Source: Patescibacteria group bacterium (GTDB lineage Bacteria > Patescibacteriota > Kazan-3B-28 > UBA10110). From it: a stretch of DNA of 64,000 nucleotides. The notes below the pieces were generated by a model, which ran no database searches, was not told where the DNA came from, and worked only from the letters and a program-made list of their open reading frames with translations. The stretch lies in the NCBI GenBank assembly GCA_016936175.1, contig JAFGPN010000015.1, positions 16,636 to 80,635 of the forward strand. The letters are read 5' to 3'. A program made the translations under genes and the position numbers. Of the stretch, positions 3 through 58,039 are shown piece after piece; positions within the stretch are counted from its first letter, which is position 1, and each line of letters begins with the position of its first letter.

Positions 3-908
3 TTCCAGCGTGTCCACATTGTCCGCGAGGTCTTGACTCGTGTCAGCATTCCGACTTTGGGAGAGTTCCAGGAGTTCATGGACACCAAGGTTCTTCTCTG
101 GCTACCCAAGCCGTCACGCTCGCCTAAACTGCCCAAGGGCAACTGGCAAGCAGAACGGCTGAAGATTCAACAGAAAGCCTGGGTCAAGGTCGGAATTGAT
201 TTGCCACAGGCTCTGTGCGACAAGTTCGTCGACATTCTGAACCAGTGTGGCGCAGAGTTGGTGGCTCAACTTGAGGCCTACGGCTTCATGTTTGTCATCA
301 CAGCGGATGTCACCTGGACTGCCAGCACTTGGCCAACAGGATGGGTTAAGCCCAACGACTGGTACTGGCAAGTGTTGAATGGCGGCAGGGTCATCGGCAG
401 TGATGATAAGCCCATTGAGGCCTGTCGGCTTCTGGGCCATATCCTGCTGATCGACACCCGACAGAAGCCCCGGTACGCCGGTGGCCATCAGCGTTGGAAG
501 GACGATGTGTTCATGGAGGCGCTCATCGGCTACTTGCAGGATCGCAAGCTCCTGCTAGTGAACGATAATGCTGGCCGTGGCAGTCGGTTCTACCTGAGCC
601 GTAACGATTATACCAACGTCGTAGCCCCGGCCTTTGTGGAAGCTCTCCAACAGCTCGGCGTTCCGGTTCAAACGGCTCGCCTCGAATACTGCCCGGAGCA
701 TTCTGCTCTCTGCCAGCTGTTCAACTCGCCCCGAAAGGATAATGGCAAGACGAACACTTGGCTGTGGTTCCAGGAGTACCTGGACTCGTCCGAGGGCTCG
801 CTGGGTGGCGGGGACTCCGACGACGGTGGTCTTGCGGACGTCGGCTACGACGACTCCGGCGGTCGCTGGGACTACGCATCTGGTTCGCTCGTGGCAGTTC
901 TGGCCTAG
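3..908 (+). CDS. DGR target protein, 5'-partial; C-terminal variable region likely in a C-type-lectin-like fold
   Basis: Frame 0 is open from the window edge to TAG at 906-908, so the in-window TTG at 33 is probably not the true start. The last ~40 codons are the VR copy of the TR/VR pair. The C-terminus is Gly/Asp/Ser-rich with an xRWxY motif. Confidence 0.7.
   Translation, partial: FQRVHIVREVLTRVSIPTLGEFQEFMDTKVLLWLPKPSRSPKLPKGNWQAERLKIQQKAWVKVGIDLPQALCDKFVDILNQCGAELVAQLEAYGFMFVITADVTWTASTWPTGWVKPNDWYWQVLNGGRVIGSDDKPIEACRLLGHILLIDTRQKPRYAGGHQRWKDDVFMEALIGYLQDRKLLLVNDNAGRGSRFYLSRNDYTNVVAPAFVEALQQLGVPVQTARLEYCPEHSALCQLFNSPRKDNGKTNTWLWFQEYLDSSEGSLGGGDSDDGGLADVGYDDSGGRWDYASGSLVAVLA
780..899 (+). 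repeat. DGR variable repeat (VR) at the 3' end of the target gene
   Basis: 120 bp matching 1200-1319 except at 15 positions. Every mismatch has A in the 1200-1319 copy and G (13 times), T or C (once each) here. Confidence 0.85.
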
Positions 909-943: not shown

Positions 944-975
944 GGCGGGGTTGCTTGCAACCCCGCCATTTTTGT
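944..975 (+). terminator. GC-rich hairpin plus T-run just downstream of VR and the target stop (terminator, possibly a DGR homing-associated hairpin)
   Basis: ggcggggttgc / gcaaccccgcc perfect inverted repeat followed by atttttg. Confidence 0.55.
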
Positions 976-1199: not shown

Positions 1200-1319
1200 C
1201 TGGACTCGTCCGAGAACTCGCTGAATGGCGGGAACTCCGACAACGGTGGTCTTACGAACGTCGGCTACAACAACTCCGGCAATCGCTGGAACAACGAATC
1301 TGGTTCGCTCGTGGCAGTT
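1200..1319 (+). repeat. DGR template repeat (TR)
   Basis: Non-coding copy of VR. It carries adenines at all 15 VR-variable positions. In the target frame it encodes 10 AAC/AAT (Asn) codons in 40 codons, the classic DGR TR signature. Confidence 0.85.
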
Positions 1320-1362
1320 TCTCGCGTTGGTTAATTAGGGGCGGGGGATCTACTCCCGCCCT

Positions 1363-1741
1363 TTAATTGTATTTCTTGATCCAACCACCAAGCATTTTGC
1401 CGATTTCCTGTAACTTACTCTGCAAAACTAAATAGGATTTTTCGTTCAAAGCCTGAACGTCATATCCCAACCGGATTTGCAACTTCACTAAGTCTAGTAG
1501 TCCACTGGCTCTAATCAGAACTTCCATTCTGCCTCGTTCGGGCGTAATAGGCGCTTGAAGAACACACTCAATTAACTCTAATAGCTTCATCTGGGTCATT
1601 TGACCCAAAGTATACTTCTCAACTTTAGGATATTTCAGAAGATGCCCATGAAACTGTTTGTAAAACTCGTACAGTCTCAGAATAATAGGGATTTCTCCAA
1701 AACCATGAGGGGGGGGGCTTAATAGGAAAGTTATTTTTCAT
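1363..1741 (-). CDS. avd: DGR accessory variability determinant (Avd), four-helix-bundle / 23S rRNA intervening-sequence protein family
   Basis: Translation contains YPKVEKYTLGQ and a C-terminal QEIGKMLGGWIK, both hallmarks of the Avd / four-helix-bundle family. The track ORF (TTG at 1608) is open upstream to 1737. The ATG at 1741-1739 is in frame only if the 9-G tract at 1709-1717 is 8 G, giving 125 aa, Avd-sized. Confidence 0.75.
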
Positions 1742-2794
1742 AATGGTGTTTTTGCGGAGATTATTTCGTTAGAGAACCTATTCTTAGCCTGGACAGAGTT
1801 TCGGAAAGGAAAGCGGAACAAGTCTGATGTCCAAGCATTCGAACTCCATCTCGAAGATAACATATTTGCTCTGCACGAGGAGCTGGCGGATGGCACCTAC
1901 CGCCATGGCGGGTACCAACAGTTTCGTATCTCCGACCCGAAGCCTCGCCTGATCAGCAAGGCATCCGTCCGTGACCGGCTACTCCATCACGCCGTCTACC
2001 GGATTTTATACCCGGCGTTTGATAAAACCTTCATCTTCGATAGCTACTCCTGTCGGAAGAGTAAGGGGACGCATCGGGGCTTCTTTAGGTTAGCAGAGAT
2101 GGCTCGGCAGGTTAGCAGAAACTACACTAGTCCCTGTTGGGCGTTGAAGTTAGATATTCGCAAGTTCTTCGATAGCGTGGATCATGGGGTGTTGATTGGA
2201 CTATTGCGAGAAAAGATGGCAGATACACAGTTGCTAGGATTGTTGGAGAATATTATTGGCAGTTTCCATACTTGTCATGCTGAATTTAGTTCAGCATCTA
2301 AGGTCCTGAAACAAGTTCAGGATGACAGAGTGAGTGGCAAAGGGATGCCACTTGGGAATTTGACTTCTCAATTGTTTGCTAATATCTATCTCGACCCCTT
2401 GGATAAGTTCGCGAAACATTACCTAAAGGCTATGTATTATTTGCGCTATGCCGACGATTTTATCTTTTTGTCGGATAACCTAGACGAACTGATGGGCTAC
2501 CTGGTGGAAGTTGCCCGATTCTTGAAGTCGAAGTTAAAGCTTCAGCTTCATCCCAATAAGCTTATCCTGAGAAAGTTAAAGTGGGGGATAGACTATGTTG
2601 GGTACGTCGCCCTGCCGCATTACAATCTGCCGAGGAGAAAAACTGTCAAACTGATTCTGCGGCAGATTGCCAGACGGAAAGATGCTGGCAATGAAGATGC
2701 ATTAGCCAAAGCCTTGTCCTCGTATCTGGGGTACTTACGGCATGTGGAGGCCCATAAGCTGACAAAACGCATAACTGATACCATAAAGGTATGA
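1709..2794 (+). CDS. DGR reverse transcriptase
   Basis: Open frame from 1709. The N-terminus ENLFLAWTEFRKGKRNK matches RT motif 0. GMPLGNLTSQLFANIYL is the DGR-specific motif 4 ending in SQ, and YLRYADDFIF is the YADD catalytic box. The track's first ATG at 2099 is internal. The ATG at 1705 comes into frame if the G-tract is 8 G. The stop overlaps the uvrC start (ATGA at 2791-2794). Confidence 0.85.
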   Translation, partial: GGGLNRKVIFHNGVFAEIISLENLFLAWTEFRKGKRNKSDVQAFELHLEDNIFALHEELADGTYRHGGYQQFRISDPKPRLISKASVRDRLLHHAVYRILYPAFDKTFIFDSYSCRKSKGTHRGFFRLAEMARQVSRNYTSPCWALKLDIRKFFDSVDHGVLIGLLREKMADTQLLGLLENIIGSFHTCHAEFSSASKVLKQVQDDRVSGKGMPLGNLTSQLFANIYLDPLDKFAKHYLKAMYYLRYADDFIFLSDNLDELMGYLVEVARFLKSKLKLQLHPNKLILRKLKWGIDYVGYVALPHYNLPRRKTVKLILRQIARRKDAGNEDALAKALSSYLGYLRHVEAHKLTKRITDTIKV

Positions 2795-4833
2795 GTAGAG
2801 CGTTTAAGCCAAATTTGCAGAAGATACCGGGAAGCCCCGGAGTGTATTTAATGTATGGAGGGAGATTGCCACGCTCCGCTCGCAATGACGATTCATTTGT
2901 TTCTGGGTCCCCGGGTCACGCCCGAGGACAAGAGGAAAAAGTAATTTATGTGGGAAAAGCACTCAATTTGCGCAAAAGGGTGTCTTCGTACTGGAAACAA
3001 CCGACTAAGCAGAGCACCAAGACGCAAGCGCTGATAAAGCAAGTAACAAGATTAGATTTCATCGCTACTGACACCGAAGCCGAGGCGCTGATATTGGAAA
3101 ACGAGTTAATTAAAAAATACCAGCCGCAATATAATGTGCTATTGCGGGATGACAAATCATTCCAATATATTCGGATTGGGTTAGATCAAAAATTTCCTGA
3201 GATAGCCTCTGTTCGTCGGGTAAACCCAGCGGATATTAAAAGTCGAGACCCTAATCGGCCAAGATACTTTGGCCCTTATACCGCCGGGGGAACAGTAAAA
3301 AATACTCTCAAGCTGTTAAATAGCATATTTCCGCTTTGCGGGAAGGCGCGAGAGTTGAATCAGCATTACGATTCTGGACATCCGCCCGGACAAAAGTCCC
3401 TTCGGACGGGAGCCAGAATGACGGGAGGGGGATTAAAGGCGCCGTGCCTTAACTATCACCTGGGGCGATGTTTGGGGGTGTGTGTCGGCAAGGCCACTGC
3501 ATCCGATTATCGCCATGCTATTAATGAGATAGTAAAGTTTTTGAATGGCGATACCAAAGATGTAATTAAATATCTGCAAATTCGGATGTCGAAGTTATCA
3601 AGCGAGAGGAGATTTGAAGAAGCGGCGCGGTTGAGGGACAGGATAAATTCGTTAGAGCAATTATTTGAACAACAAAAAGTATCTCGGCCAAAAGACCTGG
3701 AACAGGATTTCTTGGGCTGGTTGGTCGAAGGCGAAAAGATGATAGTCTCTCGCGCGCAGGTGCGCGGCGGAAGGCTATTGGGCCAGCAGATATTTGTGTT
3801 GCGCGCACCGTTAAATAATGTGGAGGCTAATCTAATGTCGCAGGCGATTATAACCATTTACGATAAGGTATTCGAAGATCTGCCACGAGAAATTATTGTG
3901 CCGGTGTTGCCAGAAGATGCTGGTGCGATTGAAAAGTGGCTGAGTGATAGGCGAGCCAACCCCACCCAACCTCCCCTTGGGAAGGGGAGGAGTGAAATTA
4001 ATCCCCTCCTTTCCAAGGAGGGGGAGGGGGTGGTTGGGAGGAGAGGAGGGGTTCGTATTTTAGTGCCACAAAAGGGACCTAATCAAAAATTATTATCATT
4101 AGCCCAGCGCAATGCCGCTCAACATTCCGGCTCTTTATTAGATGTCGATGAGCGTTTAGGTGTAAAAAAAGCAATAGTAGACCTAAAAAATCTGTTGAAA
4201 CTAAAAAAATTGGAGCGGCTGGAAGCCTACGATATCTCGCATCTGGGTGGCACCCACACCGTCGGCTCGATGGTGGTGTTTAAAGATGGTAAGCCAGACA
4301 AGAATGGTTATCGGAGATTTAGAATCAAAACTGTGCCCGGGATTGATGATTATGCGGCGTTAGGTGAAGTGATAACGAGAAGGTTGAGCCCTAAGCGCAG
4401 AGCAGATAAAAGATTCGCAGCCGGTTTGCCGGATGCGATATTAATTGATGGCGGCAAAGGTCAACTTAGTTCGGTGTTAAAACACGTTTCGGTGGATGAC
4501 AAAAAGAAGATTCGGTTTTTTAGTTTAGCCAAACGAGAAGAAGAGGTGTTTTTGCCAAACAGATCGGGAGCAGCAGTCCTGTCCAAAAGTTCGGTGGCGT
4601 TGCAGATGTTGCAAAGACTGCGAGACGAGGCGCATCGATTTGCTATTGGTTATCAAACTTCGCTCAAAACCAAACAGTTGGTAGGGGATACAGAAAAGAT
4701 GGTTGGTATCGGAGCCACCACCCGTAAGAAATTGGTGAAACAATTTGGCAGTCTTGCCACTGCCCGATGCGCCAGTGATAGCGAGCTTGCTCAAGTTTTG
4801 AGTCCCAAACAAATCCAATCTTTCCGATCATAA
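2791..4833 (+). CDS. uvrC: excinuclease ABC subunit C (UvrC), with three in-frame repeat-derived insertions
   Basis: GIY-YIG N-terminus (PGVYLMYGG...KVIYVGKALNLRKRVSSY), an LRDDKS motif and the UvrC C-terminal domains. It is 680 aa against about 610 typical. Confidence 0.9.
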   Translation: MSRAFKPNLQKIPGSPGVYLMYGGRLPRSARNDDSFVSGSPGHARGQEEKVIYVGKALNLRKRVSSYWKQPTKQSTKTQALIKQVTRLDFIATDTEAEALILENELIKKYQPQYNVLLRDDKSFQYIRIGLDQKFPEIASVRRVNPADIKSRDPNRPRYFGPYTAGGTVKNTLKLLNSIFPLCGKARELNQHYDSGHPPGQKSLRTGARMTGGGLKAPCLNYHLGRCLGVCVGKATASDYRHAINEIVKFLNGDTKDVIKYLQIRMSKLSSERRFEEAARLRDRINSLEQLFEQQKVSRPKDLEQDFLGWLVEGEKMIVSRAQVRGGRLLGQQIFVLRAPLNNVEANLMSQAIITIYDKVFEDLPREIIVPVLPEDAGAIEKWLSDRRANPTQPPLGKGRSEINPLLSKEGEGVVGRRGGVRILVPQKGPNQKLLSLAQRNAAQHSGSLLDVDERLGVKKAIVDLKNLLKLKKLERLEAYDISHLGGTHTVGSMVVFKDGKPDKNGYRRFRIKTVPGIDDYAALGEVITRRLSPKRRADKRFAAGLPDAILIDGGKGQLSSVLKHVSVDDKKKIRFFSLAKREEEVFLPNRSGAAVLSKSSVALQMLQRLRDEAHRFAIGYQTSLKTKQLVGDTEKMVGIGATTRKKLVKQFGSLATARCASDSELAQVLSPKQIQSFRS

Positions 4834-15340: not shown

Positions 15341-15394
15341 GTCATCCTGAATTCATTTCAGGATCTAGATTCTGAAACAAGTTCAGAATGACAG
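15341..15394. repeat. two-hairpin dispersed repeat (GTCATCCTGAA..TTCAGGATC + TCTGAAACAAGTTCAGAATGAC)
   Basis: Related copies at 2277-2327 (inside the RT gene), 57783-57834, 27421-27509 and 36389-36473. Confidence 0.7.
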
Positions 15395-54338: not shown

Positions 54339-54524
54339 GTCATTCCGGGCTTGACCCGGAATCCATCCTACGCTCTATGAGCTACGGAGGACTGGCGTAA
54401 GTTATTTATTATAGGCCTACGGCAGTAAAGTGTTTTCCCTGGCCGCGACCGGCTACGGGCAGGCAGGATGACATGAGAGGAGATTGCTTCGTCGCTTCGC
54501 TCCTCGCAATGACGAGTTAGGGGG
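54339..54524. repeat. composite of GTCAT-type hairpin repeats (includes a 40-nt segment shared with 27463-27500)
   Basis: gtcattccgggcttgacccggaatcc, then aagttatttattataggcctacggcagtaaagtgtttt, then gcaggatgacat, then gcttcgtcgcttcgctcctcgcaatgac. Confidence 0.65.
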
Positions 54525-54595
54525 GGGACCATCAATAACATGAATGTACTCAAAATCCCGGCAAGCCGGGACGTTGAGTTTGAGTGTAAAATTAA

Positions 54596-57517: not shown

Positions 57518-58039
57518 AACTCTACACTCCTTTTTGTCATTCCTGCGTAGGCAGGAATCCATTTTATTGCTTCTGCCTGGATCCCCGATGTCGACGCGCT
57601 AACGCCGTCGGCTCTGGGATGACATTTTAATTTATTAATAAAAATACCTCTCACGAAAAGAGGTTTAGTAAAAACACAAAGTTTCCCCTAACTCTTCACT
57701 CGGAGTTGGTTCACCCCGTTAGAAATAATAATTTCTAATCGGGGTTGCTACGAATAACGTTGGCGACCTGGCTTACTATCTTGTCATGCTGAACTAGTTT
57801 CAGCATCTAGATCCTGAAATAAATTCAGGATGACGATAGTTTACAGTTGCGGGACAGCGCCGGACTCCCCGCCCATTTCATGATTCGGGCAGGCCACCGG
57901 ACTTCGCAGTCGTTACTCGGGTTAGTATTCAAGGTAGGCTCATTATACACCTCTAACCAAACAGGCAAATAAAAAAGCGGCAACCCTGCTCTGTCTAGCA
58001 GAGATCGCCGCTCATTTCCATTCTGGTTAACCAAAATGA

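What the first reader, a model, noticed from the sequence alone, without database searches (positions are those of the whole stretch)
1700..1745. 9-G homopolymer at the overlapping divergent starts of avd and RT: a one-base contraction restores ATG starts for both
As assembled, neither avd (minus) nor the RT (plus) has an in-frame ATG/GTG/TTG ahead of its conserved N-terminus. The RT frame opens right after a stop at 1706-1708, and the avd frame is open to 1737 with only a TTG at 1608. If the G-run at 1709-1717 were 8 G, the ATG at 1705 reads ATG AGG GGG GGG CTT into the RT frame (362 aa), and the minus-strand ATG at 1741 reads MKNNFPIKPPPHGFGEIPIIL into full-length Avd (125 aa). The two reading frames then overlap by 37 bp around the tract. 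One base of slippage therefore switches both diversification genes on or off while the target stays intact. This is either a classic homopolymer assembly error or a slipped-strand phase-variation switch controlling DGR activity, which would be novel.
Basis: partly seen in the sequence, partly recalled or inferred. Interest (0 to 1): 0.8.

Follow-up and report, generated by a model that had tools for sequence, protein, structure and literature searches.

The report
Poly-G on/off switch in a DGR
A run of nine G's lies in the overlapping starts of the two genes that drive a protein-diversifying retroelement, leaving both out of frame here; related bacteria keep the same run at varying lengths, so it looks like a heritable on/off switch rather than a sequencing error.

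Summary
G9 at 1709-1717 leaves avd (minus strand) and the RT (plus strand) without a canonical start. 8G or 11G restores both.

It is not a one-off:
- An independent Logan assembly and the NCBI protein record of the same sequence both imply 9G.
- 39 of 117 non-redundant related Patescibacteria DGR loci carry a G7-G12 run at the same avd/RT junction, always G on the RT strand.
- All three frame states occur among them.
- The nearest upstream ATGs of RT and Avd need the same correction in 26 of 30 loci.

Natural allele pairs show the switch directly:
- Kazan L166 (10G, both genes full length) against L006 (11G, both truncated) have 0 mismatches in 3.5 kb.
- Berkelbacteria alleles with 9G (on) and 10G or 11G (off) are 99.7-99.9% identical, and the lengths recur on different SNP backgrounds.

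Best reading: a conserved slipped-strand contingency tract that switches the DGR's RT and Avd together, and this window is in an OFF state. Read-level heterogeneity and reversibility remain untested. The main rival is leaky, frame-independent expression through polymerase or ribosome slippage. I found no published description.

The parts
1709..1717 (.). Poly-G tract (G9), read as GGG codons in the RT and CCC codons in avd. It is the proposed slipped-strand switch and is in an OFF length here; ON lengths are 8 or 11.
   Evidence: A homologous tract is present in 39 of 117 related loci.
1363..1741 (-). avd. The ATG is at 1741-1739 and the stop at 1365-1363. The ORF is contiguous (125 aa) only with 8G, or 126 aa with 11G. 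As assembled, the domain frame is open only over 1366-1737.
   Evidence: Pfam PF22296 bAvd 59.4 bits and NCBIfam DivGenRetAVD over residues 18-122.
1648..2794 (+). DGR reverse transcriptase. The domain frame is open over 1709-2794. Candidate ON-state starts are ATG 1648 (conserved, -61), ATG 1642 and ATG 1705 (window-specific). All are one base out of frame at 9G.
   Evidence: The N-terminal extension MK..V.I.Q.LNN.DF..VRGG recurs in homologous gene calls. Pfam RVT_1.
1706..1708 (+). TGA that closes the RT domain frame immediately 5' of the tract in the 9G state.
1738..1740 (-). TGA (minus strand) that closes the Avd domain frame just downstream of the Avd ATG position in the 9G state.
1720..1722 (+). 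Premature TAA reached from the RT ATGs at 9G (MRGGA*).
1625..1627 (-). Premature TAA reached from Avd ATG 1741 at 9G, giving a 38-aa product.
1733..1735 (+). ATT codon that the NCBI annotation uses as the RT start (protein MBN2585456.1, MFHNGVF...). This shows that the deposited genome also lacks a canonical start.
1201..1319 (+). Template repeat (TR).
   Evidence: 119-nt repeat of the VR. All 15 mismatches fall at TR adenines.
781..899 (+). Variable repeat (VR) at the 3' end of the target gene. The target ORF runs off the left edge of the window and ends at 908.
944..967 (+). GC-rich hairpin downstream of the VR.
1337..1363 (+). GC-rich hairpin between the TR and the 3' end of avd. It looks like a terminator on the plus strand.

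Best explanation
The G-run is a conserved, hypermutable homopolymer (a contingency locus). It is embedded in the overlapping 5' coding ends of the divergently transcribed avd and RT genes of a Patescibacteria DGR.

How it works: slipped-strand mispairing during replication adds or removes G's. Only one length class in three (8 or 11 here) places the RT start upstream of the tract and the Avd start on the other side in frame with their domains. One tract therefore switches both proteins needed for mutagenic retrohoming on or off together, and the state is heritable. The target gene and the TR are not touched. In this window the tract is 9G, so both genes are OFF and the VR is frozen.

Shown:
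- the tract, the frames and the effect of length;
- conservation and enrichment of the tract at this junction;
- natural ON and OFF alleles in two related lineages that differ only in tract length;
- recurrence of the same lengths on different SNP backgrounds.

Inferred:
- that the length changes arise by replication slippage at high, reversible rates;
- that out-of-phase alleles make no functional RT or Avd;
- that the state matters for fitness.
For: (1) The 9G state removes canonical starts from both genes, and 8G or 11G restores both.

(2) The 9G call is reproduced in the Logan assembly of SRR13394437. It is also implied by the NCBI protein that starts at ATT 1733.

(3) 39 of 117 non-redundant divergent avd/RT loci have a G7-G12 run at the junction, always G on the RT strand. 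There are 47 G>=8 runs in about 35 kb of junction windows against 6 G/C>=8 runs in about 830 kb elsewhere. The length mode is 9-10.

(4) The tract is retained in several RT clades down to 46% identity: 14 Fitch steps against about 35 when shuffled. Close relatives such as L005 carry an interrupted version (CGAGAGGGGCC) with both genes in frame.

(5) All three phases occur. The nearest upstream ATGs of RT and Avd need the same correction in 26 of 30 loci with 27 different geometries (binomial p = 2e-9 against 1/3).

(6) Allele pairs:
- L166 (10G) has a 127-aa Avd and a 361-363-aa RT. L006 (11G) has 14-aa and 16-18-aa products. The two differ by 0 mismatches and 1 gap in 3,487 nt.
- L008 (9G) has a 131-aa Avd and a 354-aa RT. 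L007, L167 and L168 (10G) and L165 (11G) are truncated. They are 99.7-99.9% identical and the only gap is the tract.

(7) In the Berkelbacteria RT cluster, the 9G-type and 10G-type N-termini both occur on both ED[S/N]IF haplotypes. All four combinations are present, which indicates recurrent tract change.

(8) Genes with no canonical start are enriched in tract loci: 19 of 41 against 10 of 79 (Fisher p = 9e-5). The rest of the RT and Avd frames stay intact in OFF alleles.

(9) The DGR has been active in the past: 15 of 15 VR/TR mismatches fall at TR adenines.
Against: - No read-level data were available. In this strain only 9G has been seen, and no ON-allele RT or Avd of this exact sequence is in the protein collection.
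- The L003-type Kazan locus is 9G (OFF) in all four sequenced contigs, and all 16 contigs of its cluster carry truncated RT calls. Switching at the consensus level can therefore be slow, and some of these assemblies may share reads.
- In-phase alleles are the rarest class (5:16:9 for 0, 1 and 2 bases to delete; chi-square p = 0.045). This fits a costly DGR that is mostly OFF, but it also fits expression that does not depend on the genomic frame.
- Some out-of-phase alleles have a GTG or TTG at the tract edge that could still start the RT.
- Co-phasing is partly expected from shared ancestry and from codon-aligned antisense overlap.
- Illumina consensus errors at G10-G11 cannot be fully excluded for single pairs.
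Confidence: 0.6

Rival explanations
1. Frame-independent, leaky expression. The tract is kept as an attenuator, and RT and Avd are made from any genomic length. This could happen through RNA-polymerase slippage on the 9-12-nt G/C run, +1 or -1 ribosomal slippage on CCC and GGG codons, or near-cognate initiation (for example ATT 1733 for the RT). The genomic phase would then have little effect on activity.
For: - Out-of-phase alleles are the majority, and in-phase alleles are the rarest class.
- One lineage is stably 9G and OFF in every contig seen.
- Tract lengths of 9-12 match the length of the RNA:DNA hybrid.
- NCBI already had to use ATT as the RT start.
- CCC-C sites are known +1-prone sites. 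This last point rests on established knowledge and was not tested here.
Against: - Both directions and the zero shift occur among near-identical alleles, unlike programmed frameshifts, which keep one direction.
- Co-phasing of the two start codons (26 of 30) has no value if each mRNA slips independently.
- In E. coli, productive transcriptional slippage is documented for A/T runs, not G/C runs. This is from my own knowledge, not a tool result.
- Avd has no near-cognate rescue as obvious as the RT's. Its frame between the tract and the domain contains only ATC, ATT or CTG.
Confidence: 0.2
2. Homopolymer miscall. The true sequence in this organism is 8G, and both genes are simply intact.
For: G9 runs are error-prone, and a single base restores both genes.
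Against: - Two independent assemblies or records give 9G.
- The Logan contig runs straight through the tract and breaks only at repeats.
- Dozens of orthologs from other studies show the same out-of-phase condition, with lengths replicated across contigs.
Confidence: 0.1
3. Irreversible decay. In this strain the DGR is a young pseudogene that happened to be hit at a fragile homopolymer, with no regulatory meaning.
For: Both genes are OFF, and no ON allele of this strain is known.
Against: - Apart from the tract, 361 RT codons and 124 Avd codons are open.
- The TR/VR pair is clean, with 15 of 15 differences at TR adenines.
- The tract is conserved and pure across deep divergence, and it recurs in length on different haplotypes.
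Confidence: 0.07

Closest known systems
Poly-G/C contingency loci of Campylobacter, Neisseria and Haemophilus (translational phase variation by slipped-strand mispairing)
   Same: - A pure G/C homopolymer of about 8-12 nt near the 5' end of a coding region.
- Length polymorphism among near-identical genomes.
- Frame-dependent ON/OFF states.
- A tract maintained far beyond neutral expectation.
   Different: - Here one tract lies in the antisense-overlapping 5' ends of two divergent genes and switches both.
- The controlled function is a mutagenesis engine (DGR RT plus Avd), not a surface or modification gene.
- The hosts are uncultured Patescibacteria.
- Switching rate and reversibility have not been measured.
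Haemophilus influenzae hifA-hifB fimbrial switch (one repeat tract controlling two divergent genes)
   Same: A single simple-sequence repeat between or within divergent genes co-regulates both.
   Different: In hif, TA dinucleotide repeats change the -10/-35 spacing of overlapping promoters, so control is transcriptional. Here the tract is inside both reading frames, so control is translational. The comparison is from my own knowledge and was not tested.
Canonical DGRs (Bordetella phage BPP-1 mtd-avd-TR-brt)
   Same: - A TR/VR pair with adenine-specific differences.
- An Avd four-helix-bundle accessory protein.
- An RT.
- A hairpin after the VR.
   Different: - The gene order is VR-TR-(avd inverted)-RT, with overlapping divergent starts.
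- I found no description of a homopolymer switch in DGR surveys (Wu et al. 2018, PMC5758913).
Phasevarions and switchable mutators (phase-variable mod methyltransferases; repeat-controlled mismatch-repair genes)
   Same: A stochastic repeat switch sits upstream of a system that itself creates population diversity, giving second-order control.
   Different: The machinery controlled is different (retrohoming mutagenesis of one target gene). The analogy is from my own knowledge only.

Membership tests
Diversity-generating retroelement (DGR) | TR/VR repeat pair whose differences fall at TR adenines | tested here: met
   TR 1201-1319 against VR 781-899. All 15 mismatches are at TR adenines.
Diversity-generating retroelement (DGR) | Reverse transcriptase gene next to the TR | tested here: met
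   RVT_1, E = 1.8e-22; thousands of Patescibacteria RT homologs lie in the same avd/TR context. No DGR-specific RT model was available to score.
Diversity-generating retroelement (DGR) | Avd accessory protein | tested here: met
   PF22296 bAvd scores 59.4 bits against a cutoff of 40 on the 8G reading. NCBIfam DivGenRetAVD scores 69.3 bits, below its cutoff of 80.
Diversity-generating retroelement (DGR) | Intact, expressible RT and Avd (a currently active element) | tested here: not met
   at 9G neither gene has a canonical start before its conserved domain.
Simple-sequence contingency locus (phase-variable gene) | Homopolymer of at least 7-8 nt inside the reading frame | tested here: met
   G9 at 1709-1717 lies inside both overlapping 5' coding ends.
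Simple-sequence contingency locus (phase-variable gene) | Tract-length polymorphism among otherwise near-identical genomes | tested here: met
   Met in related lineages: L006 against L166 has 0 mismatches in 3.5 kb with 11G against 10G, and L008, L007 and L165 carry 9G, 10G and 11G. It was not observed for this exact strain, where only 9G is seen in two records.
Simple-sequence contingency locus (phase-variable gene) | Length change switches between a full-length and a truncated product | tested here: met
   by translation of natural alleles and of the window with 7-11 G.
Simple-sequence contingency locus (phase-variable gene) | Recurrent or reversible change at a rate far above point mutation | tested here: inconclusive
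   the same lengths occur on different SNP haplotypes (all four combinations), and the tract is the only difference in 3.5 kb. No rate, reads or cultures are available.
Simple-sequence contingency locus (phase-variable gene) | Mixed tract lengths within one population | not testable with these tools
   This needs raw reads, for example SRR13394437.
Programmed ribosomal frameshift or transcriptional-slippage recoding site | The same shift direction conserved among orthologs | tested here: not met
   0, 1 or 2 bases must be deleted in 5, 16 and 9 loci, and near-identical alleles differ in phase.
Programmed ribosomal frameshift or transcriptional-slippage recoding site | Shifted protein or edited transcript detected | not testable with these tools
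   No transcriptome or proteome data.
Assembly artefact | Not reproducible in independent assemblies | tested here: not met
   the Logan contig has 9G, and the NCBI protein start implies 9G.

The most novel reading that the evidence does not exclude
A large group of Patescibacteria DGRs carries a conserved hypermutable poly-G tract in the overlapping starts of avd and RT. The tract acts as a heritable, reversible master switch for targeted hypermutation. Lineages can turn diversification on, then lock in a useful target-protein variant by slipping out of frame. This would be a second-order evolvability control not described for any DGR.
Probability: 0.55. Interest if true: 0.85.

Novelty: new variant of a known kind. 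Interest (0 to 1): 0.78.

Why it matters
How DGR activity is regulated is largely unknown, and DGRs are unusually common in the small-genome, host-dependent Patescibacteria.

A stochastic, heritable switch on the RT/Avd pair would explain why many assembled DGRs look broken. Annotators currently truncate these genes, call them pseudogenes or give them odd start codons.

It would also give a testable link between tract state and VR diversity in time-series metagenomes. It would extend contingency-locus biology to uncultured CPR bacteria and to a mutagenesis engine. In practice, DGR surveys should treat this junction homopolymer as a state variable rather than an error.

Tried and rejected
- I looked for an ON allele of this exact strain. 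The RT search found only the 231-aa and 353-aa out-of-phase calls. Exact look-ups of eight possible Avd products (8G, 11G, and TTG or near-cognate starts) found nothing.
- I tried to fetch the NCBI contig through P0141; it is not on record.
- I tried to read Paul et al. 2017 (PMC5436926 and its DOI); it is not held.
- I tested whether VRs differ among contigs fixed in the OFF state in the L003 lineage. This was inconclusive: L162 is 100% identical to L003 and may come from the same data, and L163 and L164 break just after the VR.
- A VR comparison between L165 and L167 was confounded by a structural difference upstream.
- I considered an insertion in the T5 run at 1748-1752 that would use ATG 1743 for the RT. 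I rejected it because that ATG is not conserved and it would not rescue Avd.
- I considered the tract as a promoter spacer. I rejected it because it lies between conserved coding segments of both genes, and relatives without a tract have overlapping ORFs there.
- The promoter scan gave only weak 9/12 matches.
- Rfam found only two tRNAs in the window.

Full report
**What is in the window.** Positions 1-2800 hold a diversity-generating retroelement (DGR).
- The target gene runs off the left edge of the window and ends at 908. Its 3' end carries the VR (781-899).
- The TR (1201-1319) differs from the VR at 15 positions, all of them TR adenines.
- GC-rich hairpins follow the VR (944-967) and the TR (1337-1363).
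- avd lies on the minus strand (1363-1741) and the reverse transcriptase on the plus strand, ending at 2794.
- Read with 8 G, Avd matches Pfam bAvd (59.4 bits, cutoff 40) and NCBIfam DivGenRetAVD over residues 18-122. The RT matches RVT_1.
- The closest RT homologs come from Patescibacteria (Kazan, Berkelbacteria and others) at up to 77% identity.

**Checking the observation.**
- The G9 at 1709-1717 is real.
- The RT domain frame opens right after TGA 1706-1708 and has no ATG/GTG/TTG before 2099.
- The Avd domain frame is closed by TGA 1738-1740 (minus strand). Its first canonical start is TTG 1608, inside the domain.
- Removing one G joins ATG 1705 to a 362-aa RT and minus-strand ATG 1741 to a 125-aa Avd. 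11G does the same; 7G and 10G do not.
- At 9G the ATG frames end after 5 to 26 codons for the RT and 38 codons for Avd.

The 9G call is not peculiar to one assembly. A Logan contig from SRR13394437 is identical over window 1381-2891 and also has 9G. The NCBI protein MBN2585456.1 is this RT annotated from ATT 1733 (MFHNGVF...), which only makes sense if the deposited genome also lacks a canonical start.

**The tract is conserved.** I fetched 160 related loci from metagenomes and species-representative genomes.
- The divergent avd/RT arrangement with abutting or overlapping starts is general in this RT family.
- In 39 of 117 non-redundant loci a G-run of 7-12 nt sits at the same junction. It is always G on the RT-sense strand and never C.
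- Across 141 loci there are 47 runs of G>=8 in about 35 kb of junction windows. The remaining roughly 830 kb hold only 6 G/C>=8 runs.
- On an RT neighbour-joining tree the tract is clustered but present in several clades down to 46% identity to the window RT (14 parsimony steps against about 35 when shuffled).
- Flanking nucleotides have diverged freely while the run stays pure.
- Some close relatives have an interrupted version. L005 has CGAGAGGGGCC where L082 has C-G9-C, and both of its genes are in frame from ATGs on either side.

**Phases.**
- For each tract locus I counted how many bases must be deleted to bring the nearest upstream ATG into the domain frame. All three values occur: 0, 1 and 2 in 5, 16 and 9 loci.
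- The RT ATG (left of the tract) and the Avd ATG (right of it) need the same correction in 26 of 30 loci, although the ATG distances vary (27 distinct geometries). The binomial p is 2e-9 against 1/3.
- I treat this as supporting evidence, not proof. The loci are related, and a codon-aligned antisense overlap on both sides would give the same result.
- Under a lenient test (any ATG/GTG/TTG in the domain frame), 19 of 41 tract loci lack a start for at least one gene, against 10 of 79 loci without a tract (Fisher p = 9e-5).
- The five loci that lack both starts are the window and its nearest clade (L002, L003, L085, L086).
- Apart from the tract, the RT and Avd frames are intact in these loci.

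**Where the RT starts.**
- ATG 1705 is specific to this window; orthologs have GTC there.
- An in-phase ATG at -61 (window 1648) is shared with L002, L003, L085 and L086.
- Many RT gene calls, in homologs with and without a tract, begin with a similar extension: MK..V.I.Q.LNN.DF..VRGG followed by L/V-K/N-R-K-.-I/L-F-H.
- The RT therefore most likely reads through the tract from a start well upstream. This region is also antisense to conserved Avd codons, which could explain part of the conservation.

**Direct allele evidence.**
- Kazan lineage: L166 has 10G, a 127-aa Avd and a 361-363-aa RT. L006 has 11G, and both ATG frames stop after 14-18 codons. The two sequences have 0 mismatches and one gap, the tract, in 3,487 nt.
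- Berkelbacteria lineage: L008 has 9G, a 131-aa Avd and a 354-aa RT. L007, L167 and L168 have 10G and L165 has 11G, and both genes are truncated in all four. Identity is 99.7-99.9% over 2.3-2.7 kb, and the only gap is the tract.
- In the 90% protein cluster of this RT, the 354-aa (9G), 343-aa (10G) and 348-aa (11G) N-terminal classes occur in 6, 8 and 1 contigs.
- Both the 9G and 10G classes occur on both alleles of a linked SNP (ED[S/N]IF). All four combinations are present, which points to recurrent tract change rather than one old event.
- Other tract-bearing clusters show the same kind of N-terminal length classes.

**Interpretation.** The simplest account is a contingency locus. A hypermutable homopolymer is kept by selection in the shared 5' overlap, and its length sets both genes ON or OFF. 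The window is OFF, one contraction away from ON.

**What argues for caution.**
- I could not see reads, so heterogeneity and reversibility in this strain are inferred.
- No ON allele of this exact strain exists in the collections searched.
- The L003-type locus is 9G (OFF) in the four contigs I read, and its cluster comprises 16 contigs that all carry truncated calls. Some of these may be re-assemblies of the same data; L162 is 100% identical to L003 over 4.1 kb.
- In-phase alleles are the rarest class.
- Some out-of-phase alleles have a GTG or TTG at the tract edge.

These points keep alive the rival in which RNA-polymerase or ribosome slippage, or near-cognate initiation, gives some expression whatever the genomic frame. 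The tract would then be an attenuator. Against that rival, the phases are mixed even among near-identical alleles, unlike programmed frameshifts. Co-phasing of the two starts would also serve no purpose. A simple miscall and irreversible decay are each unlikely, for the reasons given under the rival explanations.

**Novelty.** Homopolymer phase variation is well known. One repeat controlling two divergent genes also has a precedent in hifA/hifB, which I cite from my own knowledge. Full-text searches combining DGR terms with phase variation, homopolymer, poly-G, slipped-strand or contingency found nothing relevant. The large DGR survey of Wu et al. (PMC5758913) does not mention it. The CPR DGR paper of Paul et al. 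2017 could not be read, so a mention there cannot be excluded. I rate this a new variant of a known kind: a translational poly-G switch placed in the antisense-overlapping starts of the two DGR machinery genes, widespread in Patescibacteria.

Noticed in passing
L122:4477 (G8), L135:1267 (G9), L156:2057 (G12): A separate clade of related DGR RTs has a G8-G12 run inside the RT gene itself, in the variable loop just before the G-x-P-x-GNLTSQ motif. It is in frame in all three loci. This may be an independent homopolymer switch at another position in the RT.
   Followed up: partly
window 2270-2335; also 15341-15392 and 57783-57834: The RT carries an in-frame insert (HTCHAEFSSASKVLKQVQDDRVS) made of short hairpin-forming repeats. 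Its core, CCTGAAACAAGTTCAGGATGAC, recurs as inverted pairs at two other places in the window (5 matches against 0 expected). RT homologs have different inserts at the same site (for example P0005 and P0007). This looks like a small dispersed palindromic element that inserts into coding regions.
   Followed up: partly
window 2868-2935 and 3955-4045 (inside uvrC, 2791-4833): uvrC seems to contain two further in-frame insertions of GC-rich, self-complementary sequence (for example ccaaccccacccaacctcccc...ggggagggggtggttggg). They resemble the element family above. I read them by eye only.
   Followed up: no
window 1733-1735: NCBI's annotation of this genome (MBN2585456.1, 353 aa) starts the RT at an ATT codon. 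This is a sign that automated pipelines paper over the out-of-phase state.
   Followed up: yes
L117:1-51: One related contig begins with 51 C's exactly at the avd/RT junction. This is probably an assembly artefact or a contig break at the homopolymer, and it is on the opposite strand from every other tract.
   Followed up: no
L015:3986-4037, L021:3986-4037: Two relatives without a tract also lack any ATG/GTG/TTG for the RT ahead of the conserved N-terminus (frame ...KRLLLHEGDF...), with an out-of-frame ATG in CATGAGGGTGAC. Non-canonical initiation or another frameshift may be involved.
   Followed up: no
L163 and L164 (contig ends), compared with L003:3056-3257: Two independent contigs of the L003-type locus end just downstream of the VR and its hairpin. 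This would fit VR hypervariability or the TR/VR repeat breaking the assembly.
   Followed up: partly
window 54520-54527: The only other G/C run of at least 8 nt in the window (G8) lies in a stretch with no ORF that looks like a real gene. A 61-aa ORF over it reads ...HCEERSDEAISS..., which looks like translated repeat sequence. I found no evidence of a second contingency gene.
   Followed up: partly
window 2791-2794: The RT stop (TGA 2792-2794) overlaps the uvrC start (ATG 2791) in an ATGA junction, so the DGR is packed tightly against a housekeeping gene.
   Followed up: no
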